From contig ML992513.1 in NCBI GenBank assembly GCA_010093995.1, forward strand, positions 431,203-495,202: a DNA stretch of 64,000 nucleotides. The letters are read 5' to 3'. Below, in pieces: positions 1 through 16,069 of the stretch (its first letter is position 1; each line of letters begins with the position of its first letter). The stretch comes from Elsinoe ampelina (Eukaryota). Below the pieces are notes generated by a model. The model was not told the origin of the DNA, did not search any database, and was given only the letters and a program-made list of their open reading frames with translations. Made by a program: the position numbers and the translations under genes.

Positions 1-422
1 CTAATTATTAGTCCTTAGTAGAGGTGCTTCTTTACCTTATCTAGAGAGCTTAAGGAGAGGGTTAGTAACTATAACAATTACCTTACTAGTAGCGACAATA
101 GTAGTAACAACGCTAGAAGGCTAGAGCCTATCTCTATTGCCTCCTACGCCGCTCTAGAGAGTCTCTTTATATAGCTAGTATAATAGCTAGTCTATATAGT
201 AGTACGCTTACAAGCTATAACTACTAGCTTAATCTATACTAGTACTCTATTACACCTTATTTCAGCTTTAATTTTTACTTAATTTAGCGCTAATAACGAG
301 CAATTACTATCTATATTATCTCTAGACTTTTAGCTACTAAATTTTAGTAATATAAGGTTAGTATAAAATACTACTAAGCCTAGAGGTAGCTTGTTTAAAG
401 TAAATTTAACTATAAGTAGAGC

Positions 423-448
423 TAGTGTAACTATTAGAGTAGAGTTAG
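423..448 (+). repeat. Left terminal inverted repeat of hAT element (RIP-mutated)
   Basis: 26-bp inverted match to 8246-8271 with transition-only mismatches. Confidence 0.88.
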
Positions 449-829
449 CCCCTTTAGGTTTAGTACTATACTAGAGTTTAGGTTAGCCTCTAGCTAGCGT
501 AGTACTACTAAGGGCTTAGTAGTACTAGCACTAGCTCTATACTATAGCTATAATAGTACTATACTAGCACTAGATATAGGTCGAGTCGTATATATTCTAG
601 ACGTAGTATAGTACTAGGTTAGGTTAGTAGATAAGTAGTATAGTGCTATTAAGTCCTTAGTGTACTCTTACTAGTACTATACTAGAGTTACTATTCTTAT
701 AGTAAATTCTTATAGTAACTACTATATCCTATAACTCTTATTACTTTTCCGCTCTAAATACTTAAAGTTATAGTAGGTAAAGGATACTAGAGAGAAGTAA
801 AAGTTATTAATTATTAACCCTTATATATA

Positions 830-1265
830 ATTACGACCTAATAGTAATTTATAGAAGATTAACCTAATTAACATTATCTATATAACTCTTATAAGCCTAT
901 TTTACATACTTAGCTAGTAAGCCGTATACTACCTAGAACTAATACCTTATTATTTTATTATCTACTTTATCCGGAGAATATTTTATTCTTAGTAAGTTTA
1001 CTCTTATATAAATTATAACCCTTAACTAGTAAACTAGAGTACTAAAGCTATTAGACAGAGTCTAAGACTAGAATAATTAGTTCTAGGTAGTTTAGTCTTT
1101 CTACTAACTTATAGTATAGTTGCGAATTGCCTTAATGCTATTAGATTACTAGTTAATAGTAAGTATAAGGCTATCTAGAGCCTTAATTTCTGCCTAAAGG
1201 TTATTAATAAATTTATAGTAAGTAATATTAGCCTAACGAATAATAGAGGGGTAAGTAGTAGACAT
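830..1265 (-). pseudogene. RIP-mutated cargo ORF relic of unknown function
   Basis: ATG TCT ACT ACT at 1265 on the minus strand, followed by a codon-like frame (MSTTYPSIIR*ANITYYKFINNL*AEIKALDSL...) whose stops are TAG/TAA; end uncertain. Confidence 0.4.
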
Positions 1266-1529
1266 AGTAGTAGATTTGCTTAAATTCTAGCAACTATTAG
1301 TATAAGTTATACTATAGTAACGTAAAGGTATACTAGATAGTTATTTTAATATTTCTAAGGAGAGAAAGAAGTAACTTAGCTAATAATCTACTTATATCCC
1401 TTAGTATAACAATAGCTATTGTTTAATAATAGCTATTGTTAGTATTATTGTTTTTTTATAATAGATAATAGCTATTGTCTATATTATTGTTCTTATAATA
1501 GGTAATGCTAGATATATATACCTTTTAGT

Positions 1530-2540
1530 TACTATTTCTTCTTCTTTCTCTTAAACTTCTCTTTCTTGTTGTTTAATACTTCCTTCTATAATGCCTCCTT
1601 CTTACGCTTAACTCTACCTTAACCTAGTAGATTTAATTCTCTTTTAGCCTTGTAAGATAACTCCTAGTAACTACGCTAGGCTCTTATACCTATGTTAGTG
1701 TAAAGCCTATATCTACTATATAACTCTTATATATCTTAACTTTAATAACAACTACAAAATCTAAGCTAAATATATCTATAATAACTATAGAGGTTTAGTA
1801 CTTTGCTATAAAGCCTACTATACTTATAATACTCCTTATAACTTTATAGGTGTTTCTAATCTAATCTTTCTCTATAATCTAATAAATATTAGTATAATAT
1901 CTTATAGACTAATAACATCTTCGACCTAATTAATATATAGTATACTATTAATTGTCTTATTCTTAACAGAAGAGTAGATCTACTCTTACTCTTTACTATA
2001 TACTATAATATTAAACGTAAGTAGAAGAAGTTAGATTATATTAATAATAGTAATAATAGTATTTCTTCTAATAACTAATCTAATTAAGATAGTATAGTCG
2101 AAGCATTAGCGGGCTAATAGCTTTAGATAGTTATTAATAATATAGACTTATACTTTATAAAGACTTAATTACGTTACCTCTTCCTATAAGTAACTAAAAT
2201 TAACTATAACAACGGCGTATATAAGCTCTTAAAGTAGAAGTGTTTATATTACCTCTAGCTACACTAGTAGTTATATTACTACTCTAGGTAGCACTATTAG
2301 TACTAGTAGTAGAAGTACCTCCCTTGTTGTTCTCTTTACTATTAGTGTTATTCTAGAAAGTAACCTAACTATTATTAGGCTTAAACCTAGTAAGGAAGTC
2401 GGAAGTATAATAAGATAAATATTAGTAATAGTATAGAGAGTAGCGTTAGTAATAAGTTAGCTAAGGTTATAGGTGCTATAGTAGGAGTAGTTATCGAGGT
2501 TAATAATAAGGAGAGTAGCGCGGAGATTAGTTATAGCTTT
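1530..2540 (-). pseudogene. RIP-mutated cargo ORF relic of unknown function with basic C-terminus
   Basis: Minus-strand codon-like frame ending in a K/R-rich tail (KRKKEAL*KEVLNNKKEKFKRKKKK); boundaries approximate. Confidence 0.35.
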
Positions 2541-2869
2541 AGTCTTTATATTATAGTTAATCTATACGATTTTCTCGTTAACGTTTTTATAAGTAAATCT
2601 AGTATAACTAACATAGATACGAATATAGTTATATTAAAGATACTAGCGGGTAAGAGAATAAGCTTCCTTAGGGTAGCTAATAAAGGGAGACTATTAGCAT
2701 TAGTAGGTAGAATTATATATAGTAATAGAGAAGGTACGTATAGAAGTACTTTAGAGTAGGTATTAGTATAGATACTATAAGAGCATTATTGCTTAGAGGC
2801 TATTAACTAGATACGCTTAGAATACTAGCCTCTAACCTTAGTAATGTTATATAGTAGATCTTTGTCCTT

Positions 2870-5300
2870 ATTATACCCTTCTTCCTTATTAACCTCTTTG
2901 TCGCTTAAACTATAGATAGTAATATCTCTAAAGTTGTTACTTATACTATCTATCTCGCTATTAGTATTATTATTAGTAGTAGTAAAATTGTCTATCTTAG
3001 CTAATTAGATGTTTTAAAGATTGTTTTCTACTAGCTTAGAGACTATAATTTGTCGAATTGTCTATAGAAGTAGTCTATACCTTCGATTACTAATAATATT
3101 CTTCGCTATATTAAAAACACATTTAATACCTACGCTAGCGATTAGTATTATAAGAATATTATAAGTAACATAAGCTAGTTATAGGAATAAGTACTTATTT
3201 TCTTTCTACTAAGAAAGAATATTAAATTCTAATATTTTCTATATAGGTAAAGTTCTAAGGTAATTCTCCCCTTCTATTCTTATTATATAGATATTACTCT
3301 ACCCTTACGAAAGTATATTATCTTAGCTAGATACTAGAGGTGTAAAGCTACTCTCTATATTTGATAAGGAAGGCTTCTTAAACTAGTAAGTAATAGATAA
3401 GGCTAGTAGAGGAGGTAAGAGAGTAGTTTAAGAAGAGTAGTTATTATTATAGTAATTAAGGTAGTCGAGGAACTATTTATAGTAAAGCAATTTAAAATAT
3501 AGTTCCTACGAAGTATACTTATATATACTAAGTTTCTAAGTTAGATTTAAGATTATACTACAATTAAACAGGAAACCTTAACCTCTACTCGTTTACTTAT
3601 AATACTTAGAAAGCTTAGTATAACTAGCTTTTACTATATTTTATATAACTAATAGCTAGTCTAAGTTGTTATTCTCTTCCTAAGTAGACTTAACTACGTT
3701 AAGGAAGTTAAAAAGAGTATTATATATAAGCTATATATATTATACTAATAGTATATAAGACTAACTTAGCTAGTTAATTACATCCTTAAAATTCTCTAGT
3801 ATTTAGATAATAATCTTTAGATATGCCTATTTAGCGTAGCTAAGGTAAAGGTGTTTTATATCTACGTAATTAATAGATACTATGTCTTAATTAGCTAGCG
3901 CTTTATTAGTTTAGGGCTTATATACAATTACAATCTCCGCGTTAAGCTATTTATTAATAATTAGTTAAAGTTTAATAGCTCGCTTATATATATTATATGT
4001 TAAGTTCTAATAGGTATAAATATCCTAAATAACTAAGAGTCGTTTATAAGGAGGTAGATATGCTTAAAGGGATTTAAAGTGTTAGTAGCGTTAAGAGGAT
4101 TAGTTAATTATAATACAAATTGTATAGAGCTTTAAAATTAGTTAAAAAACTATAAAAAAGAACTATAAGAAATATAACTTACTTTATAGAGGGAATTCGG
4201 AACTAATAGAGTTATTTAGATATTATAGAGATACTACTTCTTAAGCTTATTAGCTTTCTTATTATCCTTAGTAGTTTCTAGCTATAGAGCTTAAATAATA
4301 TCTTATATAACAAGATTAATTACATAGGCTAGATATAGAATTATATTCTTAATAGAGAACTAGTATATATTCTTCTTCTTAAGACCTTATTATACTTTAG
4401 ATTATAGAGTGTTATTGTTACTTACATTGTCCGCTATAATAGTAAGAAGGTATATATTAATCTTTTTTTTATTTAGAACTCTTAGTAGTTCCGTGCTAAG
4501 TGTAACTCTAGTATACTATCTACTAATTAGTATAAAATCTAGTAGGCACTTACGTACTTACTAGTTATCGTTAATATAGTATACCTTTATAGCTATAAAA
4601 CTTAGATAGTTATTTATAGACTAGCTATCTAGCGCAATTAAAACTTTTATCTAACTACTAAGATTAGTAAGAAGATTAGACTAAATATCCTTATAGTGCT
4701 CTTTTAATAGCTCTAAGGCCCGTGTCTAACCTAGAATATTAGTATATAGCTAGAGGAAATATATAAATTAGAGAAAGAAGGAATTATTAACTGTTTAGAA
4801 TAACTAATTATAATTAATAAGGACCTTAATAAGCTCTTTTTTAAATTGTTCTAGGGAGAATTATAGTATATAGGATATAGTACTAGTAGTATTTGCTTTT
4901 AATTACGTTAGAGCTATCTAAGCTACTAATTGTTTATAGCTAGAAGATTTTATATTCTAGTAGCTTTAGTATCCGAGATGTTTTATTAGGTGTTTATTAC
5001 TAATCGAGTTTGTTATTAGGTGTTATAAAGCTCTACTATAGTAGAGACAATATATAAGAGGTATTCTATTAGTAAGCTTAGTACCTTTATTAAAGTTAGC
5101 CTAAATAACTCTATAGCGAGTTATAGAATTCTAGTTTAGTAGGTTTTATATTCCGCTAACTCTTAATTTACTACCTATTAATATTATAGGCTACTATATT
5201 TTCTAGGCTTATATAGCTAGCTATTCTTTAAGTAGTATATCTAGTTAGTAGGGTAGACAGCTAATAATTTTAATAGTTTTATAGAATTAAGTAGAGGATA
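2870..5300 (-). pseudogene. hAT transposase, RIP-inactivated
   Basis: Minus-strand relic motifs in the correct order: BED-finger-like YCLYY...KHLIKHL (~5050-4980), IALDS*S (ALDxWS, catalytic Asp, ~4630), IADNVSNN (~4420), YLAYVINL (CxAH), TY*NLTY (TRWNST, ~4010), and C-terminal dimerisation domain *KENKYLFL*LAYVTYNILIILIASVGIKCVFN (~3210-3110). Confidence 0.92.
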
Positions 5301-5589
5301 GATTATCCTAGCAATTAATATAGAACTCTTTAAGCTCGTAGGGGAGAGGTAGTAGTAGCGTAACAACTTCTAAAAGTATCTATAGTTAAGAATTAACCGA
5401 GTCTTTATTAAATACTAACATTTTAAAAATAGAAATATAGAATATTACTAGCTATATAATAAGGAGTAGAAGACTATAAGAATGCTCTATAAGAATCTAT
5501 TAGCTACTCTTAATTTATAGATTAAAAAAATTTTAATAGTATAGAACTAGAAAGCTACTAAAACTATAGTCTAATTTTCCTAACTTAAG

Positions 5590-6867
5590 GTTAATCTATT
5601 TATTCTTATCTATATCGTCCTTACTCTTACTCTTCTTATTATTATTATTACTCTTATCTATTACCTTATTATTATCTTTATTCTAATTCTCTTTATTAGA
5701 ATTATTAAAGTCCCTAGTAGTAACTACCTTATAGTATATTTTAGCTACTTTCTTAGTCTTATACTTGTTAGGTTTCTTATTAAGGAGGTTTTTAATCTTA
5801 GAGTTGTTCTTAACTTCTTCTTTAACCTTATTATTACTATACTTAACATAGTAATTGTTAAATTTAAGTAAAATATTATTATTCTTATACTTAAATTCTA
5901 GTTCGAGAGTAAGTTTATATTTACTTTAATAGATTAGTATATAACTATAAGAAACAACTATAAAAAATAACATATACCTAATTATTTACCTATACTACTT
6001 AGAGTTTAGTAGGTGTTATATTCTTAATAAACTTCTTAAACTTAGCTTAGTTATTATTATTATAGTTACTAGTATTATATAGCAAGTTAATACTATTATA
6101 GTAGATCTTATAGGTCTATTTCTTAAGAATTCTACTAGTGCTAAGAAGACATTTTACTTAGCAATTTAGAAATATATTTATCTTGTTATAGAGCGCCTTC
6201 TTTGTATAATTAGTAAGGAGTTACTTATAGTAAAGAAGAGTATTAGCTTTATAGATACTACTCTATTTTTAGTAGATAGATATAAACTTATCCTCTAACT
6301 ATTCCTCTATATAGAATTAGTAGATGTACTATAAGAATATACTATAAGAAATATACTACTCTACTAGGTATAATAGTAAGTCTCCGCTATCTTCTTATAT
6401 ACTATATTAAAGATAGCTTCTTTCTCCTTATTAAATATTACTTAGAATTCCTTAGAGTTCTTAAGTTTTGCCTTAAGTATATATTTTATAGAGCAATTAG
6501 TATTACTAGTAGTAGTAAGAGCTTTCTCCTCTATACTAGCTTATATAGTATAATCTCTTTACTAAATAGCTCGCTAGGTATTACTAAGCTATACTTTCTA
6601 CTATAGAATTCTAAGGAGGTAGCTATAGTAAGAAGTTCTAGTATTCTAAGAGCGATTTTTAATCTAGTATTTAATCTTATTAGCCTCGGAATTAAAACTC
6701 TATAGTCTAGTTAGTATTTAACTATAAGAAGCATCTATAAGAATTACTCCTATTATAGTAAGGATTACTTCCTCTTCCTTAGTTATTTCTTTAGTCTTAA
6801 TTACTAGAGTATTAGTTATCTCTTTCTCTTTACTAAAGGTTTACTAATCTATAGGATTAGTAGACAT
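5590..6867 (-). pseudogene. RIP-mutated cargo ORF relic (~400 codons), divergent from the H3-like gene
   Basis: ATG TCT ACT AAT at 6867 on the minus strand; long codon-like frame interrupted by RIP-type stops, with a charged low-complexity tail; no family recognised. Confidence 0.45.
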
Positions 6868-7243
6868 TATAGATTAAGAATTAGTAGTAATTTATAAGAG
6901 AAAGTAGAATATTAAGTATAATAGGAAGCGAGATATAAGATATAAGTTTTATAAGGAGAAGATAAGGAGAGAAGAATTTAGCATTTCTTATATATATAGT
7001 AAATAGAGTAGCTAGGAATATAAGTAATAATAGGTATTAATTCTATTGTTATACTAATATAAAGTTGTTAATATTGTTAATATAAAGTTATTATAGTAGA
7101 GAATAACAATACAAAATTTATATTCTATATACTATTATAAATTCCTTAATAAGGCTTAATATCTTACTCTTAGTATTTTCGCCTTACTCTTCTTTACCTT
7201 TATAAACAAATTTTAATAATTAATTTAATAAATTTACATAGCT

Positions 7244-7825
7244 ATAGCTCGTAAGAAGTAAGTAACACCTCTAAAAAGGGTAAAGCTAAGAAAGTAAGGC
7301 ACTAAGAAAACCACCGCTAAAAAGTCTACTATAGGTAGTTACGTAACAAAATTTAAACTAGTATTAACTAGACAAATTCGCTAGGTAAAGAGCTATAGGT
7401 TTAAGCTAGGTAGTTAGTTTCTTATAGTAAATTCTTATAGTCTTATATCTAATATAGTATAGCCGTTGCCCTCTAAGAGATTTATTACTACTAGAAGATA
7501 ACTAAACTTCTTATATATAAGCTTCTCTTCTCCTATATTGTTTATAATATTATATAAGATATTAAGTTAACACTTATAAGTAGAGATTTACGCTTTACGC
7601 TAGATACTATTAAGTGTCTCTAGGAAGTAAGTAAGGTAATACTAGTAGAATATTTCAAAGGTATATTAACTATGTATTTAGAATATATAATACCTTATAC
7701 TAATAACTATAGTAGACTATAATCTTAACGCTATCTATGCTAAGCGTTATACTATTATATAGAAAGACTCTTAGCTTGCTAGGAAATATTATAATAAGTA
7801 CTACTTACTTACTTTCTCTAATTAG
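7244..7825 (+). pseudogene. Histone H3-like variant gene (2 introns), RIP-inactivated, inside the hAT element
   Basis: Reads (M>I)ARKK*V...KKTTAKKST...VKSYRFKLG|TVAL*EIYYY*KITKLLIYKLLFSYIVYNII*D...DLRFTLDTIKCL*EVSKVILVEYFK|DYNLNAIYAKRYTII*KDS*LARK. Reversing C>T/G>A gives MARKKQ...[36 protein letters not shown]...DLRF...LQE...FED.NL.AIHAKR.TI..KD.QLAR, i.e. an H3 histone fold. GT-AG introns at ~7413-7462 and 7661-7715. Confidence 0.93.
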
Positions 7826-8245
7826 TAAGACCTTTCCTCTATAATGCTATAAGAATAAACTATAAGAAATAGATAGGTTTATTTTTATATAGACTAGACT
7901 ATTAAATTTCCTTTCTATAGACTTATTACAATACTAAAGTACAGTGTAGTAGCTATAGTTGCCTTAAAGCCTAACTAAGGCGTAGTGCTATAACGTAGTA
8001 TAATACTAGGATTTAACTCTAGTGCTAATTCGGTGTAGTGCTATTATAGTGTAGTGTAGCGCTATTATAGTGCAGTGCTATTCTTGCTTAACTACGGTGC
8101 GGTGCTAGTGCTAGTGTAGCTCGGCGCAGTACTAGTGCTAGTGCTAATGTAGTAGGGTGCGGAGCTGGTGCTATTTAGTTCAGCACCGGGTGCCGACCCG
8201 CTAAGAACAGCTCCGCACCAGCACCGGGGTCGGCCTTCGGCCGCC

Positions 8246-8271
8246 CCAACCCCGCCCCAACGGTCACACTA
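8246..8271 (-). repeat. Right terminal inverted repeat of hAT element (essentially unmutated)
   Basis: CCAACCCCGCCCCAACGGTCACACTA followed by TSD AGCGGGGC. Confidence 0.88.
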
Positions 8272-8312
8272 AGCGGGGCAGGCTTCAGCTCGATCAGTTC
8301 GTTGCATGATCA

Positions 8313-11300
8313 TCATCTACTGTACAATTCATCATCATCTGCGCTTTGCTCAGGCTGTGTGATCCTTTCCAACCTCGCTCCATGCGCCTCCAACAACTTG
8401 GCACACTCCCTCTGATCAGCATCGATGGCTGCACGGAGAGCCTCATCCAGCTGGTTCTCGGACCAGGCGAGTCCAAATCCTTCCTTGACGGGCATGTACG
8501 CCTCCAAAGCAGATGCCGGACCCTGCGCGCCCGAGTCTTGTCTTGCCTGCGCACCGGCCGCTACCAGGAGGTCTGCCGTATCTTGCCGCCCATACCGCCG
8601 GGCAACGTCCAGTGGTGTGTCACCATCCTTGTTCCTGTTATTGAGTGCAACGTCGGCCTGAAGCAGATATTGCAGAACTTCAGTGCTTTTGTTGAGTGCG
8701 GCGAGATGCAAGAGGTCGTTACCGTTCACGTCCAACGCAGATGGTTTGCCCCCGAAAGCGGACATCTGCTTGACAATATCAGGCGAAGGACTGTGCAACG
8801 CGGTGATATGCAGCACCGAGACAGGTCGTTGATTCCAGTTGAGCCTACGGTTGTGCATCAGTAAAGACTGAATTGCCGGCCAGGAGAAGTAGGCAGATGC
8901 TGCAAATAAGGAATCGCGATCCTCCGCCAAGTCGATGAAGCTATTGTTGTTGTGCGTCAGCCAGTATTGTAGTACATGCTGGAGACCTTGTCTTGCAGCG
9001 ACTACCAGGATCGAGTCACCGCCGCTGTCAGATCGTCTCAAGCGCCCTCCACGACCGAGCAGTATCAAGACGCAAGAAGTATTCTCCGCTTGCAAAGCTG
9101 ATGCAAGGGCCACATCTGGATCAAGCTCTGCTTTCTCGGCCATGTCCACGGAGGGAGACAGGTCGAAGGCATTGTTCCATCGGGCACCCGCTTCCAAGGC
9201 GACTTCACAATTGTCCCACTGCATAGCCCACTCGAGGGTACCATGTATGTTGGCCCCGAGTCGTGTAAGCATCTGTGCCACTTCGTCGTCTTGCTCGATG
9301 AGTGCAGCGCAGAGCGCCGCGCCCATCCTAAATCCGGTGCTTTCGATCTCAAAGAAGAGTGATAGAAATTCTTCCTCCGAGTACATCTTGCTCGCACGGC
9401 AAAGAGCATATAATGGCCAGTCTCGGAGCCGCACTAGCGCTATTCTGGTGGTACTCTTCTGCAAGAGAAGTCTGATAATGTCCGTCCATCCTTGCAAGCA
9501 AGCTTTTGACAGGAGGCTCTGATTTTGGGAATCATAAGACTGGTCGTCGAGAAGTGCGATGCCAGGATCTGCCCCACTCAATAGACAGAACACTATCAAG
9601 TCTAGACATTCATGGAGCGCAGCTAGCTGCAGAACCATGTTGATCCCATTCAGACCAGATACTGTCAATTTGTAGACAGCGTCATTGAGCACTTCCCAGG
9701 TGGGCACAAATGTGTCTCCGCTGAGTGATCTCGGAACGAATGGCTGAAGAACACGCTTTTCGACCGATCGAGGTCCTAGATCGTCACTGAGTACGATCTC
9801 ATGGTCGGCTTCGCGGGGATCGTGTATGAAGGAAGTCTTGCAGGCTTCAAGACCTGCCACTCTTCGGATGGATCCCTTATCATAGAGCCAGATCCTTTCT
9901 AGTAGGCGAATGGCTATGCGGCCTGCAGTCGCTCTGGTCTCGGGGTTGCGCAATCTGCGTAATGCTAAAGCCAAAGCTGTGGTCCTGAAGCCACCGCCTG
10001 AAACGACATCATCCTCGCCGGCATCGATGAGAAAGTCGACTAAAGCCTCATCGAGCTGGTAGGTAGCAGTCAGCAATGGGCTTCCGACAGTCGGACAAGG
10101 GAGTCTCGGGTCAAATGCGTGATTGTGCTCGCGGAGCAGCTTGTAGGCTTCCAGATTGCCACAGCTTACTGCCTCAGACAAAGCTGGACCATGTCCGGCC
10201 GTCACGATGTCGGCTCGAGCTCCAGCATCGAGCAAAAGCTGCAAGATTTTGAGCTTCTCTGCTTTGCGGAAGCCATCGCTGCAAATCGAGACAGCAGCAT
10301 TGACAGGGGATCCATAATTACCTGACACACTTGTGCTGATCCCGTAATTCGTTATGAGGTATCGTACCACATCAATCTCCCCCGAAGCTACTGCGGCAAT
10401 GAGTGGATCGGCGAAGTATCCAGTCAGACGCGAGGTGGAAGCACTGTTGGACAATAGAAATTTCACGATCGACAGATGACCACCCCATGCGGCAGCACAG
10501 AGGGGTGTTCCCAGAATGATTCCAGGTAAAGTGCACTCTCCACTATCGTTACGAAGGTCCTCAGGCGACAGCTCAAGCTTGAATCTGCCAGTGTACATGT
10601 TGTGTTCGATGAGCGACAACTTTGGCAATCCCCGCCAGCCTGTGCGCAGAGGAATGTAGCGACTGAAATCATCGAGCTTCTGTGTTTCTCGGTGGACAAC
10701 GGCAGATTTATCGACGTTCACCTGGTAAGAGCCTGGAAAGTATGTCATGACCGGTTGAACGGGGCTCCACGCTGGTACAAATGTTGTTACAGTGCGCACC
10801 GCGTCCGGATCGGCGCCCTTTCCAATCAGTAATTTGACGATGTGAAGATGTCCGTTAGCGGCAGCGGCACAGAGCGGGGTTCCATAGTACGTCTTTTGAT
10901 CGACATCGTAGCCTGCAGAGAGGAGTATCTCAACGACTTCCTTGTGACCACGAGCACAGGCAGCAACGAGAGGGCTGCCATACCAGCCGGATGGACTCGA
11001 AAATTGCACCTCTTTGGCCATTAGTATCTTGATGACTGGAGTTAATCCTGCAAGCGCAGCAAGATAGAGTGGATCTTGGGTGACACCTCGAAAAGAGGTG
11101 TTGACTCCGGCAGCTTGGCTGGAGGACTCCGCTGCATTGGACCTTTCTTGCGTGGAGTCGAGCAGGTGGGACAGAGGGTGCTGGACACCGTCAGGATTGG
11201 AGAAGTGTAGCCATGTTTGGTAAGCAACAGGACTGTCGGTGAAAAGCTCCTCCAACATGATGAGAACCTCTGGCGACGAAGCTGCAGCGTCCGCGGCGTG

Positions 11301-13766
11301 CTCAAACCAATTGCTTGAAGCCCAGTGCAAGAAAGGACGATCGACGTCATTCTGTTGTGCGATGTCTGTGGACTCGAGATCGAGCAGATACGTCAGACAT
11401 GTACCGACCAGGACGCCTTTCATGGTTGCTTTGTCAAATCCTACCAGGTCCTCTGCGTTACCTCGGTCGAAGAACTCCTTGATTGAGAGATGACCGAGCC
11501 GGATTGTTCGCTTGTCTGATGTGTGGTCTTTGATTACTGTCAAGAGGGCGGGACACATACTTTCGATGTCCGCATCTAGGAGTCTATCGTCGATATGGAA
11601 TCTCCGGCGATTATTTTGGTCCGTACAATGAGTAGCCAGAGCATCCCTGGCTTCATCAAAGGACATAGCCTTTCCGAAAGCGGCTAGAAGCTGGACAAGT
11701 TTGATCTCACGCGGAGAAGTCATCCGCTCCAATACACGTCGGTACAATTGAATCAGATCAAGCGGTACGGATCCGAGCTCTTTCTGTAGCTCTCGAACTG
11801 TGCGGCACTTCTCCAGTATCTTCAGATAGCTGACCACCCATTGGAACCTGTACTAGATCAGACATCGGTTTGAGTCATGGTACGTTTGTCGATCCATACA
11901 TATCTTCTGGGCCATTCTGTATGACTTCGACAATGAGTTGGAGATTCTCTTCGTTCCAGAGAGTATCATTGTTCCGACTCGAGAGTTGTTGCTCGCACCA
12001 CGTAGTCAGGAGAGACGACAGATCCGGTAGAAGCAATTTGGCTTTCATTTGTAATGTCTCGAACTCATCAACAACGTGCGTGAATGCTCTGGTTGCTTCA
12101 TATGGATCTCTACAAGTGACCAGGAGGTGCGCCCGAGGTTTTCGATGGGCAATGAATCCAGAAATCCACTGATCGATCTGATGCCTGGGGTCTTCGCTCG
12201 TCTCGTCAAGTGCGTCCAGAATGATGAAGACTTCCTCCGAAGACTCAAGCAGGTCATCAAGCAGTTTCACCAATGTGATGGTACTCGGCCGACGTATGCC
12301 TTCTGCATGCTGGCTATAAGCCTCGTGGACACTTGCAGGCGACTTGGTTGTCAGCGTGAAGAGCTGTGCACATAGGGATCGAAGCACATCGGAATACGCC
12401 CCTCTCTCAGATGCATCGCCGTGTCTGAAGTAGTGGTAGACAACTCTATTGCCTGTGCATGCTAGGTGATTGGTAATGTAGGAGACCAGTGTCGTCTTAC
12501 CACTACCGAGCCTACCAGAAAGCCATAGGAATGATCCTTGGGTCGTGATCCAACTGATGTAGCTTTCATGGTTGAAAATCCACTCGCCGGTACCAGGGTG
12601 GTGGGTCTCCAGTGCGTTGTTGTGGATGCCAGATGTATCAGAAGGGCACAGCCAGTCCAGGATACTCTTGCTTTCGTATTTCCGCTGACCAATTGCGACG
12701 GAGACTTTCAGCTCCTGCACGTGTGTAGACAGATCTTGCAGATCTATTTGCGAGTCAGCCACTGGAATTCATCGTAGGGTCGGGTGAAGCCCCAACCTGA
12801 CTGATATTGCTTCACAGAGTCGATAGGGAGCTTTCTGAGGACCTCACGAGCAAATGCGGCAGCATTGATGGAGGCAAATCCCTGCCATCGATCGTTTTTG
12901 TGCGAGTCGCAGTAATCAGATATACCCCTTACCACGAGACACTCAATGGACGTCAGTGCACCAGCAGCTTCCATTTCGAAACAGATGATGCCGTCGTTTC
13001 TGGACAGCGTGTCTCTCAGATAAGCGTCCTTGATCACCGCATTGCCAGTAGCTATGGTCCCCATGTGCAACACGAAAGCTCCGGAGGATCCAGCAGTTTT
13101 CGGGCGAGGTACATAAGTGCTGAGATCACAGCCCGCATCTTCGCACTCAAGCTGTTCCTTGACGTGTTGCACATTTGAAGGGAATAACCTGTCTTCATAG
13201 CCTCCGGGATATTCGAATTGCTTCCTGGCCTGGGGGTTGGGGATCTTCTTCACCAGCTTCACATTGTCAAGCAATGCATCTGGCCCTTCCCACTCAAGCA
13301 TCTCCTCGACTTTGTTGGCGGCATTCGTCAGTATCCTCGGGGGTGCAGGGATATAGCCGGTACGCTCGAACAGACCACGTTTAGCTTTGCCACTGTCGTA
13401 CTGGATGCATCCCGAGTGCGAACCAGTAGGTTTGCCGACCACAACATGTCCAAGCCGAATCTCCCCATTGCTTGTTATGGTTGGCACTCCGCCTCCAATG
13501 CCGACCAGCAAAGCGAATTTCAAATTTGGGAATGTCCTTCTCATGTGCGTCACTGAGCTTGCTGTAATTGTGTTGCCAGTCGTGGAGAGACGACACAGCA
13601 CGACATTATGCTTGTGGATCTCCCCAAGCTCGTAGACATTATGGTCTGATTCTGGTTGAGCAAATCCCTCGTGCAGCTCATCAAGCATGCATTTTGCAGC
13701 AAGATACTCGACCTTGAGAGGACACACCCACCCAATTTGGTAGTCCTCGGGACGCAGTTGCTTCAT
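8313..13766 (-). CDS. NLR-like protein: PNP_UDP (nucleoside phosphorylase-like) - NACHT - ankyrin repeats, ~1782 aa, 3 exons
   Basis: Three track ORFs join in frame via introns 12744-12796 and 11848-11899 (GT...branch-like CTGAC/CTGAT...AG). PNP motifs LVGIGGG, FEMEAAG, RGISDYCDSHKN; Walker A GRLGSGKT; Walker B FIILDALDE; MFQWV across the junction; many ankyrin repeats (TPLCAAA, GDTPLDVA). Confidence 0.93.
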
Positions 13767-14012
13767 GTTGGATCATCTCGGGTTTGGTCGCAAGGACACA
13801 TGTCCCGAGGTGTCGTTGAAACGGATTTGACGGGTCTTTACCAAAGGTGATAGCCAGTTGTAGGAATGACAAGTTCGTAGAAATTGGTGAGCTGCGGCTG
13901 AGAGCCATAGCCACGACCCGTCATGCCCGTGACTGTGCCGCATTCGACCTGCTGGCGAATCAGATGGCGTGTCGATCTGGCCAATGAGAATATTGGCTTG
14001 TCACAGTTGCCA

Positions 14013-15662
14013 CCTCCGAGAGTGCGAGTTTCTTCGGTCTTGGCGTTGTTTACCTCCTTATCCACTCCATCACACGTAACTCTATATAGTTATTACTCCA
14101 TCAATAACGTGTTATTGAAGCTTAAACGATTATAGGACGTGGCAAAGACCTCCCTTTATAGCTCTATTAAACTATAATTGCTTATTACTTTAATCTTAGC
14201 CTCTCTATCTTAGAGGTAGAGAAGCTCCTCGGAATCTATAAGAACATCCTCTAAAGCCTATTCTCTAAGGTTTTAAAGGCTGCTAAGAGTAGTAAATTAC
14301 ATAAATTAATAGAGTATATAAAGAATAAAGACCTATAAGGCCTAAAACTGCTTATTACACTAGGCTTGGCTAAGTCTTTTATAGTTTAAAATACTATCTA
14401 GCTAAATAGCAGCTAGGATCTAGTCATCTCCACTAACTAGACAAATAAGCATAAAGCACTCTAAGAACTCAATATAAACATTCTAAAGCTTTATAAGAAG
14501 TAGGTCTTTAATATTAAAGACTATCTAGATTATTACGCTAGCGACCTAGAGAGTAATAAGTCTATTAGTTGCAATTATAAGATTAGGAAGTCTAGTTAGT
14601 ATTCTCTAGAGTATTAACTCGAATATACTAAGGACAGTAGTAAGCTTTATAGATATATTAAAGAATAAGCTATTCTTATTATCTATAATAAAAAGAAGTA
14701 GACCTTTAGTGGCATAGCTAATAAACAAGTCTCTATACCTTAAGAAGTAACTCTAATTAGAATAGAGATCTTACTAAACTTTATGCGTAAGTAATAGACT
14801 ACTATAAGTACTTAAAATTGCTCTATACTATAGCCTTATATTGTGTAGAACTTTAACAATGTTAAGCAGTATAATCTAAAGAGCAAACTAGCCGTTATTA
14901 ATGCTATAAACCGCCGGCTTATAGATAAGAAGCGCTAGCGAGCTATCTATAATAAGGACTTAGAGGAGTACTAGTAGCTAGAGGCTCTTTAACGCTATAT
15001 CTATAAAGTTAATAAGAGTAATACTAAATCTAGTTTTAAGTACAAGACTTATAAGAAGGAGCTAGAATAGCTATTTAAATACAACAACTTTAAGGCTAAA
15101 GCACGTAAACTTAATAGCCTCTAGTATGCCTTTAAAGTCTATAATAAGCTACTCTTTCCTTATATAGAGTAGCTTAAAGGCTCTAACTCTAGCTGCCGCG
15201 TAGTAGTAATTAAAGACAATAGCACTATTTATTATAAGACTCGAAAGATTATAGCCTACTACATTAAGGAGCTTAGTATTAAATTTAGTAGTTATCTAGC
15301 CTTTTTACTAGATTTAAATCCTTGTAAAACACTCTACTATAAATAAAAGAAGCTTCTTAAAGCCTTTATGTTTGTAGTTCGTAATTAGAAGAAGGCTATA
15401 AGGTTAGAGGCTAATATAAGACTTAAGGCTGTCTAGGAAGTAAAGGAGTTTAACTAAAAGGTGAGGAAGTACTATAGTTTAGCAGCTTTTAAGAAGCTAA
15501 GAAAGAAGTATAGAGATGTATAAGGTTACAACAATTACTCTAAATAAGAATAACACCTTCAAGTTCAAAATTGATAGAATAATCAAGCCTTAAAGTAATG
15601 AGATAGTTAGTGATACAACTCCATGAAGCCGCCAAGACCGAAGAAACTCGCACTCTCGGAGG
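14013..15662 (+). mobile_element. Tc1/mariner-superfamily DNA transposon (1650 bp), RIP-inactivated
   Basis: Perfect 33-bp TIRs CCTCCGAGAGTGCGAGTTTCTTCGGTCTTGGCG (14013-14045 and 15630-15662); AT-rich RIP-type interior; flanked by CA on both sides. Confidence 0.92.
14132..15547 (+). pseudogene. Tc1-like DDE transposase relic (DD36E after de-RIP)
   Basis: N-terminal HTH-like (M>I)GRGKDLP...; VVVIKDNSTIY (EDN..VH) and YLAFLLDLNPCK (PAFSPDLNPCE) motifs; 36 codons between the second Asp and the inferred Glu. Confidence 0.85.
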
Positions 15663-16069
15663 CATATCGAGAGTACTCGTTAGAAGAGCCTCTGGGAGGA
15701 CGGCAAGAGATACTACATCGGACCGAGATTGATGTATAGGCACCTGAAACAAGCCTTTTGTCGCAGCATTGATGGTCATCATGCCCACGAGATCACGATG
15801 TAGATGCAAAATGGTGCCAAAGACAGCAGACCTCGGTGTTTCTGAGCCGTCCCGTGGCGTGGGGAACGGCAGCTTTCCTTCGATTTCACACCACACTGAA
15901 TGGCGGGGTAGATCCCTGTATAATTTCCTTATATTGCGCACAAAACTAGTCATGCCTCGGCACCGACACTAACATGTATATAGCAGGTTAGCTGCTTCGA
16001 AGGTAAGCGGGCTTTCCTCTATGTCACTGCTCTCTCATCGCCTTCTTCCTTCGCCACTCCTACCTGATC

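What the first reader, a model, noticed from the sequence alone, without database searches (positions are those of the whole stretch)
7244..7825. Transposon-borne histone has CenH3-like rather than canonical H3 features
Several differences from canonical H3 cannot be produced by RIP transitions. The Q68 position is TCC (LPF-S-R); loop 1 is about 4 residues longer (DIKLTLISRDLRF vs DFKSDLRF); the T107 position is TAT (not derivable from ACN); and the N-tail is longer and divergent, while keeping ARxK4Q, one KKST motif and a K36-like VK. F84 is retained. Loss of Q68/T107 and a long loop 1 are standard CenH3 diagnostics. Inference: this is a divergent H3 variant or CenH3 mimic that could steer the element toward centromeric chromatin or act as a methylation decoy.
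Basis: partly seen in the sequence, partly recalled or inferred. Interest (0 to 1): 0.82.

Follow-up and report, generated by a model that had tools for sequence, protein, structure and literature searches.

The report
RIP-killed histone H3-like gene in hAT transposon
This is a mutation-riddled, dead copy of a histone H3-like gene that belongs to a known kind of fungal hAT transposon; its odd residues are inherited marks of that transposon gene lineage and do not show a centromeric histone.

Summary
Window 7244-7825 (+) is a three-exon, 158-codon H3-like gene: start ATG>ATA, 9 in-frame TAA/TAG, Ser (TCC) at Q68, Tyr (TAT) at T107, F84 kept, and an N-tail 12 residues longer. Loop 1 is 5 residues longer, not about 4.

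The gene lies inside a 7,849-bp hAT element (423-8271). The element has 26-nt terminal inverted repeats, an 8-bp target-site duplication, a hAT dimerisation domain, and dozens of RIP-diverged copies in the same organism. A flanking gene is identical to an Elsinoe ampelina protein.

Transposon-borne H3-like genes are published: Pyrenophora tritici-repentis (Manning 2013) and Mycosphaerellaceae (Dhillon 2019). Read by eye from Dhillon's supplement, the intact Pyrenophora H3L shares both intron positions, S68, Y103, C107-compatible, N110, S124, Y130 and the C-terminal extension. The "CenH3-like" residues are therefore lineage characters of this transposon gene.

CenH3 membership fails on F84, the H3-like tail and sequence ranking. 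The long loop 1 is absent from the Pyrenophora H3L.

Verdict: a new, dead member of a known kind. Modest novelty lies in the first case in this order, cross-order conservation, and a doublet motif embedded in the element's introns.

The parts
415..422 (.). Left copy of the 8-bp target-site duplication (RIP-mutated)
Evidence: It reads AGTAGAGC, against AGCGGGGC at 8272-8279. Five of 8 bases are identical and the other 3 are C>T/G>A transitions on the left copy. Strings printed.
423..448 (+). Left terminal inverted repeat (RIP-mutated), begins TAG
   Evidence: Longest purine/pyrimidine-matching inverted run between 1-3000 and 7826-8400 is 27 nt (422-448 against 8246-8272). In 40 shuffles the maximum was 24 and the mean 20.2. 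First seen.
423..8271 (.). Whole hAT element, 7,849 bp, heavily RIP-mutated except for its last ~200 nt
   Evidence: TIRs plus TSD. GC 0.24-0.31 in 1-8000. RIP indices. In DNA run X1, 3,760 short contigs lie on 1-~8100, with summed word depth 3,555-9,857 in the 24 bins up to 8016. The 5 bins from 8351 on have depth 150.7.
3038..3274 (-). hAT C-terminal dimerisation domain of the RIP-damaged transposase
   Evidence: PF05699, E 3.5e-6, 27.2 bits against a cut-off of 21.4, profile positions 1-80 of 84.
7244..7412 (+). H3L exon 1: N-terminal tail, start codon now ATA
   Evidence: Translation. It ends R-F-K-L-G, then the first base of the T45 codon.
7413..7462 (+). H3L intron 1 (50 nt, phase 1): GTTAGT, doublet motif, CTAAT, TAG
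   Evidence: H3 homology continues across it at canonical spacing, G44 | T45 V46 A47 L48. It holds the doublet at 7419-7441. By eye, Ptr_cons has an intron at the same place and phase.
7463..7660 (+). H3L exon 2: alpha-N end, alpha-1, loop 1, alpha-2
   Evidence: The S68 codon TCC is at 7531-7533. The 15-nt loop-1 insertion is at 7567-7581.
7661..7715 (+). H3L intron 2 (55 nt, phase 1 in the D106 codon)
   Evidence: GTATAT ... TACTAAT ... TAG. Removing it gives F-K-D-Y-N-L in frame. By eye, Ptr_cons and Czm_cons have an intron at the same place and phase.
7716..7825 (+). H3L exon 3: end of alpha-2, alpha-3, and a C-terminal extension beyond H3; stop TAG
   Evidence: The Y107 codon TAT is at 7718-7720, N110 at 7727-7729, S124 at 7769-7771.
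694..716 (+). Doublet motif (TTCTTATAGT twice, 13-nt period), 271 nt inside the left end
4149..4171 (-). Doublet motif in an intron-like context (GTAAGT ... ACTAAT ... AAG); second unit degenerate
5473..5495 (-). Doublet motif
5944..5966 (-). Doublet motif, one unit degenerate, in an intron-like context
6328..6350 (-). Doublet motif in an intron-like context (... TACTAAT ... TATAG)
6721..6743 (-). Doublet motif in an intron-like context (GTAATT ... TACTAAC ... CTATAG)
7846..7868 (-). Doublet motif just downstream of the H3L stop
   Evidence: By eye, Ptr_cons has an inverted doublet in the same relative place.
8246..8271 (-). Right terminal inverted repeat, not RIP-mutated
   Evidence: GC rises from 0.44 to 0.70 between 8051 and 8250.
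8272..8279 (.). Right copy of the 8-bp target-site duplication (unmutated)
   Evidence: The string printed for 8245-8290 gives AGCGGGGC at 8272-8279.

Best explanation
What it is. [quoted passage not shown] H3L is an intron-containing histone H3-like gene that is part of a hAT DNA transposon, here a 7.85-kb element at 423-8271 in Elsinoe ampelina. The transposase lies on the minus strand and H3L lies near the right end on the plus strand. This is the same layout as the 5.6-kb H3L-carrying hAT element of Pyrenophora tritici-repentis.

How it got this way. The element multiplied by cut-and-paste transposition. RIP then hit all copies with C>T/G>A changes. In this copy the start codon is lost and nine codons are now stops.

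Where the odd residues come from. The non-canonical residues were already present in the active ancestor: S68, a non-Thr 107, N110, S124, Y103, Y130, F41, the long tail and the C-terminal extension. Most are shared with the intact, expressed Pyrenophora H3L. They are inherited characters of a transposon-borne H3 variant lineage. They are neither RIP artefacts nor signs of CenH3 ancestry. The 5-residue loop-1 insertion is private to the Elsinoe lineage.

Shown here: the gene model, the RIP damage, the hAT membership, the multi-copy state, and the fact that copies differ only by transitions.

Shown only by eye from a published supplement: the shared residues and shared introns with Pyrenophora.

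Inferred: in active elements H3L was spliced, translated and assembled into nucleosomes as an H3 variant that served the element. My guess for that service is weakening of heterochromatic silencing around new insertions. This copy does nothing today beyond adding to an AT-rich block.
For: Gene model and damage.

H3 likeness. One search gave 16 hits at E<=1e-3, all H3-type among the 8 I read.

hAT membership:
- PF05699 above its cut-off.
- 26-nt TIR and an 8-bp TSD whose two copies differ only by 3 RIP-type transitions.

Multi-copy, RIP-only divergence (run X1):
- 3,760 contigs laid at 80% likeness or more.
- Depth about 3,600-9,900 against 150.7 in the unique flank.
- 341 of 342 variant places are transitions, and no indels are listed.

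Literature:
- Manning 2013 (passages) describes a hAT with transposase, central ORF and H3L, tail insertions, 'belong to neither group', and ESTs for H3L.
- Dhillon 2019 (Results and Discussion sections) describes hAT-borne, RIP-killed H3-like copies in six Mycosphaerellaceae.

By-eye translation of Ptr_cons in Dhillon's Additional file 2:
- Introns at the same two codons and phases.
- TCC at 68.
- Of the window's 19 non-transition differences, 8 equal the Ptr residue or are one RIP transition from it: S68, V70, E90, Y103, C107, N110, S124, Y130.
- F41 is shared, as is a similar C-terminal extension.
- Many third-codon-position differences lie between the two genes, while the protein stays alignable.

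Species: the flanking ORF is 100% identical to an NCBI protein labelled Elsinoe ampelina.
Against: - The comparison with the Pyrenophora, Cercospora, Pseudocercospora and Sphaerulina consensus sequences was done by eye on supplement text. It could not be put through an aligner or a tree.
- Only 40 of 343 variant places from the read-laying were printed, and none lies inside 7244-7825. 'No reversion to canonical H3' therefore rests on the global tally (one transversion, no indels), not on the H3L columns themselves.
- Apart from the dimerisation domain, no transposase domain (DUF659, BED, catalytic core) was detected in the RIP-damaged frames.
- No central-ORF homology was tested.
- Eleven of the 19 non-transition differences are not shared with the Ptr H3L. 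Some drift after loss of constraint cannot be excluded.
- The functional part (a nucleosomal variant that helps the element) has no direct evidence here.
Confidence: 0.88

Rival explanations
1. CenH3 mimic. The element encoded a centromeric-type H3 that steered the element to centromeric chromatin, or acted as a decoy for histone methylation.
For: - Three classical CenH3 diagnostics are met: extended loop 1 (+5), no Gln at 68, no Thr at 107. The diagnostics are as listed in the passage of Drinnenberg 2014 seen.
- Non-transition changes cluster at the start of alpha-2: positions 85, 86, 87, 90, 91.
- The K9 context of the tail is not recognisable, while an A-K-K-S-T motif remains.
Against: - F84 is kept. 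T118, the threonine position as numbered in the eLife passage, is kept too.
- The tail keeps the H3-type motifs A-R-x-K-Q, R-K-Q, A-K-K-S-T and V-K.
- After reversing transitions, up to 72 of 91 fold positions can equal H3.
- The 60 best of 157 PDB matches are all H3.
- The long loop 1 is absent from the closest intact relative, while S68 is present there (by eye). The features do not travel together as a CenH3 module.
- Manning 2013 compared the Ptr H3L with fungal CenH3 and placed it in neither group.
- Nothing about localisation was testable.
Confidence: 0.06
2. A recently captured copy or retrocopy of the host's canonical H3 that looks odd only because of RIP and neutral decay. This is the reading Dhillon 2019 gave for the Mycosphaerellaceae copies.
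For: - 27 of the 46 differences from H3 over positions 44-134 are explained by transitions.
- The copy is clearly dead.
- Dhillon 2019 report intronless copies in P. fijiensis. By eye, one intronless copy each is seen in Pmu_cons and Smu_cons.
Against: - The gene has two introns with intact GT..AG ends, so it is not a retrocopy.
- 19 non-transition differences and an in-frame 15-nt insertion are present.
- No frameshift occurs in 477 nt.
- Copies differ from each other by transitions only, so the other differences predate amplification.
- Eight of the 19 are shared or transition-compatible with the Ptr H3L of another order (by eye).
Confidence: 0.04
3. A host H3-variant gene (not a transposon gene) that happens to lie in a RIP-affected AT-rich block.
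For: [quoted passage not shown]
Against: - It lies between TIRs with a TSD, next to a hAT transposase remnant.
- The whole stretch, H3L included, is present at about 40-60 times the k-mer depth of the flank.
- Contigs with internal deletions of the element exist (joints 4965>6576 and 6519>7704).
Confidence: 0.02

Closest known systems
H3L gene of the ~5.6-kb hAT 'transduplication' element of Pyrenophora tritici-repentis (Manning et al. 2013, G3, PMC3538342; consensus Ptr_cons in Additional file 2 of Dhillon et al. 2019)
   Same: - The layout matches: minus-strand hAT transposase with a dimerisation domain, then plus-strand H3L a few hundred nt inside the right TIR, and a TIR that begins TA with G-rich subterminal repeats.
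- H3L has an elongated N-tail that starts M-A-R-x-K.
- The two phase-1 introns sit at the same two codons (T45, D106).
- The shared residues are TCC (Ser) at 68, Y103, Cys-compatible 107, N110, S124, Y130 and F41, plus a C-terminal extension ending L-L-x-F.
- Intron 1 carries a 13-nt-period doublet of the element's own short motif (TTATCACAG in Ptr, TTCTTATAG here). That motif recurs about 11 times in each element.
- All Ptr states were read by eye.
   Different: - Ptr copies are intact, nearly identical and expressed (26 copies, ESTs). The Elsinoe copy is RIP-dead.
- The Elsinoe element is 7.85 kb against 5.6 kb.
- The Elsinoe H3L has a 5-residue loop-1 insertion and 11 further non-transition differences that Ptr lacks.
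- The tails are not alignable in their middle parts.
- The hosts belong to different orders (Myriangiales against Pleosporales).
hAT-borne, RIP-inactivated H3-like copies of Mycosphaerellaceae (Dhillon et al. 2019, Mob DNA, PMC6710886)
   Same: - These are also hAT elements with an 8-bp TSD and TAG-initial TIRs, confined to AT-rich blocks, with all copies killed by RIP.
- By eye, Czm_cons and the second H3-like copies of Pmu_cons and Smu_cons carry an intron at the same T45 position, holding each family's own short repeat.
- Czm_cons also has the D106 intron.
- Smu copy 1 has a loop 1 five residues longer.
   Different: - Those elements are ~9.5 kb, often with two H3-like copies, and were described as intronless retrocopies of host H3.
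- Residue 68 differs there: Tyr in Czm, Leu in Smu copy 1, Gln kept in Pmu copy 1 (by eye).
- The window's motifs are absent from all six consensus sequences. Five motifs had 0 hits, and the 9-mer had 1 hit and four other motifs had 0.
- The authors found no nucleotide similarity between their elements and the Ptr element.
CenH3 (CENP-A/Cse4 family)
   Same: It has a histone fold with an extended loop 1, no Gln68 and no Thr107 (criteria from the passage).
   Different: - F84 is kept and H3-type tail motifs are kept.
- It ranks with H3, not with solved CenH3s.
- It is multi-copy and transposon-borne.
- Localisation is untested.

Membership tests
hAT superfamily DNA transposon | 8-bp target-site duplication | tested here: met
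   415-422 against 8272-8279: 5 of 8 identical, and the 3 differences are RIP-type transitions on the RIP-mutated side.
hAT superfamily DNA transposon | Short terminal inverted repeats | tested here: met
   423-448 against 8246-8271 match in every purine/pyrimidine class. The run is 27 nt, against a maximum of 24 in 40 shuffles.
hAT superfamily DNA transposon | Transposase with the hAT C-terminal dimerisation domain | tested here: met
   PF05699: 27.2 bits against a cut-off of 21.4, E 3.5e-6, at 3038-3274 (-).
hAT superfamily DNA transposon | Other transposase domains (catalytic core, BED finger, DUF659) | tested here: inconclusive
   None was detected in any of the stop-read-through frames (6 frames, 12 sub-frames). 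RIP damage and introns make a miss likely.
hAT superfamily DNA transposon | Repeated in the genome | tested here: met
   3,760 contigs of run X1 lie on the element. Summed depth is 3,555-9,857 against 150.7 in the flank. This depth is not an exact copy number.
H3L-carrying hAT lineage (Pyrenophora type, Manning 2013) | H3-like gene between the TIRs of a hAT element | tested here: met
   H3L at 7244-7825 lies inside 423-8271.
H3L-carrying hAT lineage (Pyrenophora type, Manning 2013) | Insertions in the N-terminal tail and variable residues in fold helices, matching neither H3 nor CenH3 | tested here: met
   The tail is 12 residues longer, and 19 of 91 fold positions differ by non-transition changes. 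The ranking is with H3. The definition comes from the passage.
H3L-carrying hAT lineage (Pyrenophora type, Manning 2013) | Shared derived residues and intron positions with the Ptr H3L | tested here: met
   By-eye translation of Ptr_cons. Both introns have the same codon and phase. S68, Y103, N110, S124, Y130 and F41 are identical. Positions 70, 90 and 107 are one RIP transition away. This was not run through an aligner.
H3L-carrying hAT lineage (Pyrenophora type, Manning 2013) | Central ORF of unknown function between transposase and H3L | not tested
   Minus-strand Lys-rich frame remnants lie at about 5590-6800 (translations). No comparison with the Ptr central ORF was possible.
CenH3 | Extended loop 1 | tested here: met
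   +5 residues.
CenH3 | Gln68 absent | tested here: met
   TCC = Ser. The only residues it could derive from by transitions are Ser or Pro.
CenH3 | Phe84 absent | tested here: not met
   D-L-R-F is kept.
CenH3 | Conserved Thr of alpha-2/alpha-3 absent | tested here: inconclusive
   T107 is replaced (TAT). T118, the position number printed in the eLife passage, is kept. Which numbering the original criterion uses I know only from recall.
CenH3 | N-terminal tail unrelated to H3 | tested here: not met
   A-R-K-K-Q, R-K-Q, A-K-K-S-T and V-K are retained.
CenH3 | Groups with CenH3 rather than H3 by sequence | tested here: not met
   The best 60 of 157 PDB sequences are all H3, and none is named CENP-A or Cse4.
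CenH3 | Centromeric localisation and dependence on the Scm3/HJURP chaperone | not testable with these tools
   This needs experiment.
Retrocopy of host canonical H3 (Dhillon 2019 model) | No introns; exon-exon junctions fused | tested here: not met
   Two introns are present, 50 and 55 nt.
Retrocopy of host canonical H3 (Dhillon 2019 model) | Differences from H3 attributable to RIP | tested here: not met
   19 of 91 positions plus a 15-nt insertion are not attributable to transitions.

The most novel reading that the evidence does not exclude
One hAT transposon lineage has carried its own intron-bearing histone H3 variant, kept under purifying selection, across at least two and probably three orders of Dothideomycetes. 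The orders are Pleosporales, Myriangiales and Mycosphaerellales. The variant is marked by S68, Y103, C107, N110, S124, a long tail and a C-terminal extension. In this reading H3L is a working transposon gene, a nucleosomal variant that alters chromatin or silencing at or around the element. It is not a passively captured housekeeping gene.

The element's ~50-nt introns are a paralogous family, each built around a 13-nt-period doublet of an element-specific motif oriented with the gene's sense strand. That orientation points to self-derived introns or splicing-level self-regulation.
Probability: 0.3. Interest if true: 0.7.

Novelty: new member of a known kind. Interest (0 to 1): 0.4.

Why it matters
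Transposon-borne H3-like genes in Dothideomycetes are in print. This copy is dead, so the locus itself has no live biology.

Three things add something:
- It places the H3L-hAT lineage in Elsinoe (Myriangiales). My searches of the held library found no report of that.
- The RIP-aware reading shows H3L-specific residues, an H3L-specific intron and a C-terminal extension shared with the intact Pyrenophora gene. This argues that H3L is an old, maintained transposon gene. Both papers instead treat it as independent recent captures of host H3. It also suggests that the published 'retrocopy' and '16-aa insertion' descriptions partly reflect unrecognised introns.
- The motif-bearing introns may say something about how such elements regulate themselves or gain introns.

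If H3L really is a functional histone variant encoded by a transposon, it would be a rare case of a mobile element bringing its own nucleosome component. The intact Pyrenophora copies make that testable.

Tried and rejected
Searches that gave nothing usable:
- Whole-genome search: no genome is held for this window. Copies elsewhere could be seen only through read-laying.
- The search for homologous proteins with exon 2 ('longer' lengths): 26 candidates, none at E<=0.01. RIP leaves no shared 5-mers.
- The search of protein representatives with exon 2: 16 hits at E<=1e-3. Of the 8 I read, 7 are tandem or fused H3 repeats whose scores add up, and 1 (P0021) is an unnamed 145-aa H3 variant no closer than canonical H3 (37% against 43%). 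No intact close relative surfaced.
- ESM Atlas: it does not take a protein read with stops as X. I did not pursue this by other means.
- Metagenome scan with the un-mutated 22-nt right TIR: 0 matches.
- The search of earlier findings: nothing by place, by words or by sequence.
- No other copy and no host H3 gene in the window.

RNA evidence:
- No RNA holder was listed.
- The two runs guessed to be RNA that I laid (X3, X6) cover only the flanking gene from 8367 on. This says nothing about expression of the element.

Analyses that fell short:
- Pfam on read-through frames of 1-8100 and sub-ranges: only PF05699 is significant. DUF7891 at E 0.23 was disregarded.
- Gapped purine/pyrimidine alignment of the two element ends beyond the TIR: score 95 against a shuffle maximum of 87, so not convincing. 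Only the ungapped terminal run and the TSD are used.

Errors I corrected:
- The first RIP-aware script was misaligned by one residue. It was redone.
- The script label for the right TSD, and my note, are off by one. 8272-8279 is correct.

- A phylogeny with fungal H3, CenH3 and hH3v. No fungal CenH3 or H3L sequence could be brought in as a stored protein, and supplement sequences were not typed into tools.
- Part 4 of Additional file 2 (most of Pfi_cons and the left half of Ptr_cons) was not read.
- Figures 5B and S4 of Manning 2013 and Figures 6-8 and 10 of Dhillon 2019 are not held. They may already show some of the residues and introns discussed here.
Full report
**1. What is in the sequence**

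Window 1-~8100 is an AT-rich block (GC 0.24-0.31) next to GC 0.50-0.63 gene-bearing DNA. It has strong RIP indices. TpA/ApT is 1.85 and (CpA+TpG)/(ApC+GpT) is 0.19, against 0.51 and 1.39 in 8201-14000.

Within the block, 7244-7825 (+) reads as a three-exon histone H3-like gene:
- exon 1: 7244-7412
- intron 1: 7413-7462
- exon 2: 7463-7660
- intron 2: 7661-7715
- exon 3: 7716-7825

Both introns are phase 1, in the T45 and D106 codons. Both have GT..AG ends and CTAAT/TACTAAT branch-like sites. Spliced, the gene is 477 nt = 158 codons plus stop. It has no frameshift, ATA in place of ATG, and nine internal TAA/TAG.

The H3 likeness is real:
- tblastn of an H3 against the whole window hits only here (E 4e-6).
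- phmmer against PDB gives E 5e-5 with a 5-residue gap in loop 1.
- Pfam Histone on exon 2 alone gives E 0.0019, below its cut-off.

**2.

All are present: TCC at Q68, TAT at T107, F84 kept, and a tail that keeps A-R-K-K-Q, A-K-K-S-T and V-K and is 12 residues longer. Loop 1 is longer by 5 residues, not about 4.

I made the claim 'cannot be produced by RIP' explicit. For each codon I listed the residues reachable by turning T back to C and A back to G. Over the 91 aligned H3 positions 44-134:
- 45 are identical.
- 27 are reachable (22 in strict CpA/TpG context).
- The 15-nt loop insertion comes on top.

The reference was an animal-type H3, so a few of the 19 may be animal/fungal differences.

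**3. It is inside a hAT transposon**

- A hAT C-terminal dimerisation domain lies on the minus strand at 3038-3274 (PF05699, 27.2 bits against a cut-off of 21.4).
- The ends are a 26-nt inverted repeat, 423-448 against 8246-8271. It matches at every purine/pyrimidine class; the run is 27 nt against a maximum of 24 in 40 shuffles.
- The ends are flanked by an 8-bp duplication, AGTAGAGC against AGCGGGGC. Its three differences are C>T/G>A on the mutated side.
- The element is 7,849 bp. RIP fades over its last ~200 nt, so the right TIR and TSD are unmutated.

**4. It is multi-copy, and copies differ by RIP only**

Contigs of a DNA run of the same organism (X1) were laid on 1-10000 at 80% likeness or more.
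- 3,760 short contigs fall on 1-~8100.
- Summed depth is 3,555-9,857 there, against 150.7 on the unique flank.
- Of 342 variant places, 341 are transitions (A>G 95, T>C 94, G>A 77, C>T 75, T>G 1).
- No indels are listed.
- Two contig joints (4965>6576 and 6519>7704) show internally deleted derivatives.

Caveat: only 40 of 343 rows were printed and none lies in H3L. 'The consensus does not revert to canonical H3' therefore rests on the global absence of transversions and indels.

**5. Species**

The ORF 34 nt beyond the right TSD (8313-11852, minus strand) is 100% identical to an NCBI NACHT/ankyrin protein labelled Elsinoe ampelina. That species is a Dothideomycete of the order Myriangiales.

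**6. What is known**

Two papers in the held library describe this kind of thing.

Manning et al. 2013 (passages read):
- P. tritici-repentis has a ~5.6-kb hAT element with transposase, a central ORF and 'H3L'.
- There are 26 nearly identical copies, and ESTs exist.
- They report insertions in the N-tail and variable helix residues.

Dhillon et al. 2019 (Results and Discussion read):
- Six Mycosphaerellaceae carry hundreds of RIP-killed H3-like copies in ~9.5-kb hAT elements.
- The authors interpret them as intronless retrocopies of host H3.
- They treat the Pyrenophora case as independent.

A search for Elsinoe with these terms found nothing relevant.

**7. Comparison with the published consensus elements**

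This comparison was made by eye. Additional file 2 of Dhillon 2019 holds seven consensus elements. I read parts 1, 2, 3 and 5, and a text search showed the header Ptr_cons. I did not type these sequences into tools, so what follows is my own reading of the text.

The un-mutated Ptr_cons H3L:
- It has introns in the same two codons and phases as the window (A|CT and G|AC).
- It has TCC at 68.
- It reads ...L-P-F-S-R-V-V..., ...G-Y-F-E-D-C-N-I-N-A-I-H-A-K-R..., ...K-D-S-Q-L-A-R-R-Y-F... and ends in an extension ...L-L-A-F-L.
- Of the window's 19 non-transition differences, 8 equal the Ptr residue or are one RIP transition from it: S68, V70, E90, Y103, C107, N110, S124, Y130.
- F41 is also shared, and the C-terminal extension is similar.
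- The two genes differ at many third codon positions, including by transversions, while the protein stays alignable.
- Ptr has no loop-1 insertion.

Other consensus elements:
- Czm_cons has both introns at the same places.
- The second H3-like copies of Pmu_cons and Smu_cons have the T45 intron.
- The first copies of Pmu and Smu are intronless.
- Smu copy 1 has a 5-residue longer loop 1.
- The window's own motifs do not occur in the six Mycosphaerellaceae consensus sequences.

My reading is that the window holds a RIP-killed member of the Pyrenophora-type H3L-hAT lineage. H3L looks like an old gene of these elements, not a set of repeated fresh captures.

The paper states that most P. fijiensis H3-like hits match 'only the third exon' at 71-100 aa. 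I infer from this that host H3 has no intron at D106. If so, that intron is H3L-specific. This is inference only and was not tested.

**8. CenH3?**

The criteria come from the passage of Drinnenberg et al. 2014 that cites Malik and Henikoff 2003: an extended loop 1, and absence of a particular Gln, Phe and Thr.
- Met: loop 1, Gln68, Thr107.
- Not met: Phe84. The threonine at the position number printed there (118) is also kept.
- The tail is H3-like.
- Up to 72 of 91 fold positions can be H3 once transitions are reversed.
- The 60 best of 157 PDB matches are all H3.

The loop insertion and S68 do not travel together across the family. I put the CenH3-mimic reading at about 0.06.

**9. How it works**

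Shown: a hAT element with an H3-like passenger or core gene multiplied and was then inactivated by RIP. This copy is a pseudogene.

Inferred: the ancestor encoded an intact 158-residue H3 variant, for three reasons.
- There are no frameshifts.
- All nine stops are TAA/TAG, reachable from Gln, Arg or Trp codons by transitions.
- The splice signals are kept.

I infer from the residues and introns conserved across orders that this variant was under selection in the element. Its role is unknown. My best guess is a nucleosomal variant that blunts heterochromatic silencing of the element. The K9 context is lost while a K27-like A-K-K-S-T remains. I give that guess low confidence.

**10. Seen in passing: a doublet motif in the introns**

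The 10-mer TTCTTATAGT occurs 11 times in the window, all inside the element. About 0.37 occurrences are expected in the AT block by a first-order model, with a maximum of 4 in 300 simulations.

The 11 occurrences form 8 doublets with a 13-nt period. Six of the 8 lie in intron-like contexts (5' GT..., doublet, CTAAT/CTAAC, YAG) and are oriented with the presumed sense strand. One of these six fills most of H3L intron 1.

By eye, Ptr_cons shows the same design with TTATCACAG. That motif has 5 forward and 6 reverse text matches, including one in H3L intron 1 and several in ~50-nt introns of the minus-strand genes. The Mycosphaerellaceae H3L introns hold those families' own motifs.

**11. Verdict**

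The transposon-borne divergent H3 variant is confirmed but already known as a kind. The CenH3 mimicry is not supported. This is a new, dead member of the lineage in a new order, with two modest additions: conserved H3L characters across orders, and motif-bearing introns.

Noticed in passing
window 694-716, 4149-4171, 5473-5495, 5944-5966, 6328-6350, 6721-6743, 7419-7441, 7846-7868: Eight doublets of TTCTTATAG(T) with a 13-nt period lie in the window, all inside the element. They comprise 11 exact 10-mers, against about 0.37 expected in the AT block. Six sit in ~50-nt intron-like segments and follow the sense strand of the gene they lie in, including H3L intron 1. By eye, the Pyrenophora consensus has the same design with TTATCACAG. 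The element's introns look like one paralogous family, or they carry a binding or splicing signal.
   Followed up: partly
Dhillon 2019 Additional file 2 (Czm_cons, Pmu_cons, Smu_cons), read: By eye, at least one H3-like copy per consensus has an intron after the P-G codons (T45, phase 1). Czm_cons also has one at D106. [quoted passage not shown] In this window tblastn likewise returns only the 65-aa exon 2.
   Followed up: partly
window 8272-8313 and 8313-11852 (-): The element's right end sits 34 nt from the end of the long minus-strand reading frame (8313-11852) of a NACHT/ankyrin (NLR-like) gene. RIP fades inside the last ~200 nt of the element and does not reach the gene. GC rises from 0.44 at 8051-8100 to 0.70 at 8201-8250.
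   Followed up: partly
window 4965>6576 and 6519>7704: Contigs of run X1 join these points with 17 and 22 other letters between them. These are internally deleted derivatives of the element. The second one lacks most of H3L.
   Followed up: no
window 1-422: Left of the element's TSD lies another RIP-mutated repeat, with depth about 3,500-3,900 in run X1, roughly half that of the element. The hAT element is therefore nested in, or abuts, an older repeat that runs off the window.
   Followed up: no
window 14001-16000: A second, smaller AT-rich island has GC 0.35, TpA/ApT 1.71 and (CpA+TpG)/(ApC+GpT) 0.65. It is probably another RIP-affected fragment. It shows no similarity to 1-8150.
   Followed up: no
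window 547-567, 8030-8050, 8052-8071: A subterminal ~20-nt repeat (ACTATAATAGCRCTACAC-like) is present twice near the right end and once, inverted, near the left end. G-rich GGGGTTGGGG-type repeats lie next to the right TIR. By eye, the Pyrenophora consensus has similar repeats at its ends.
   Followed up: no
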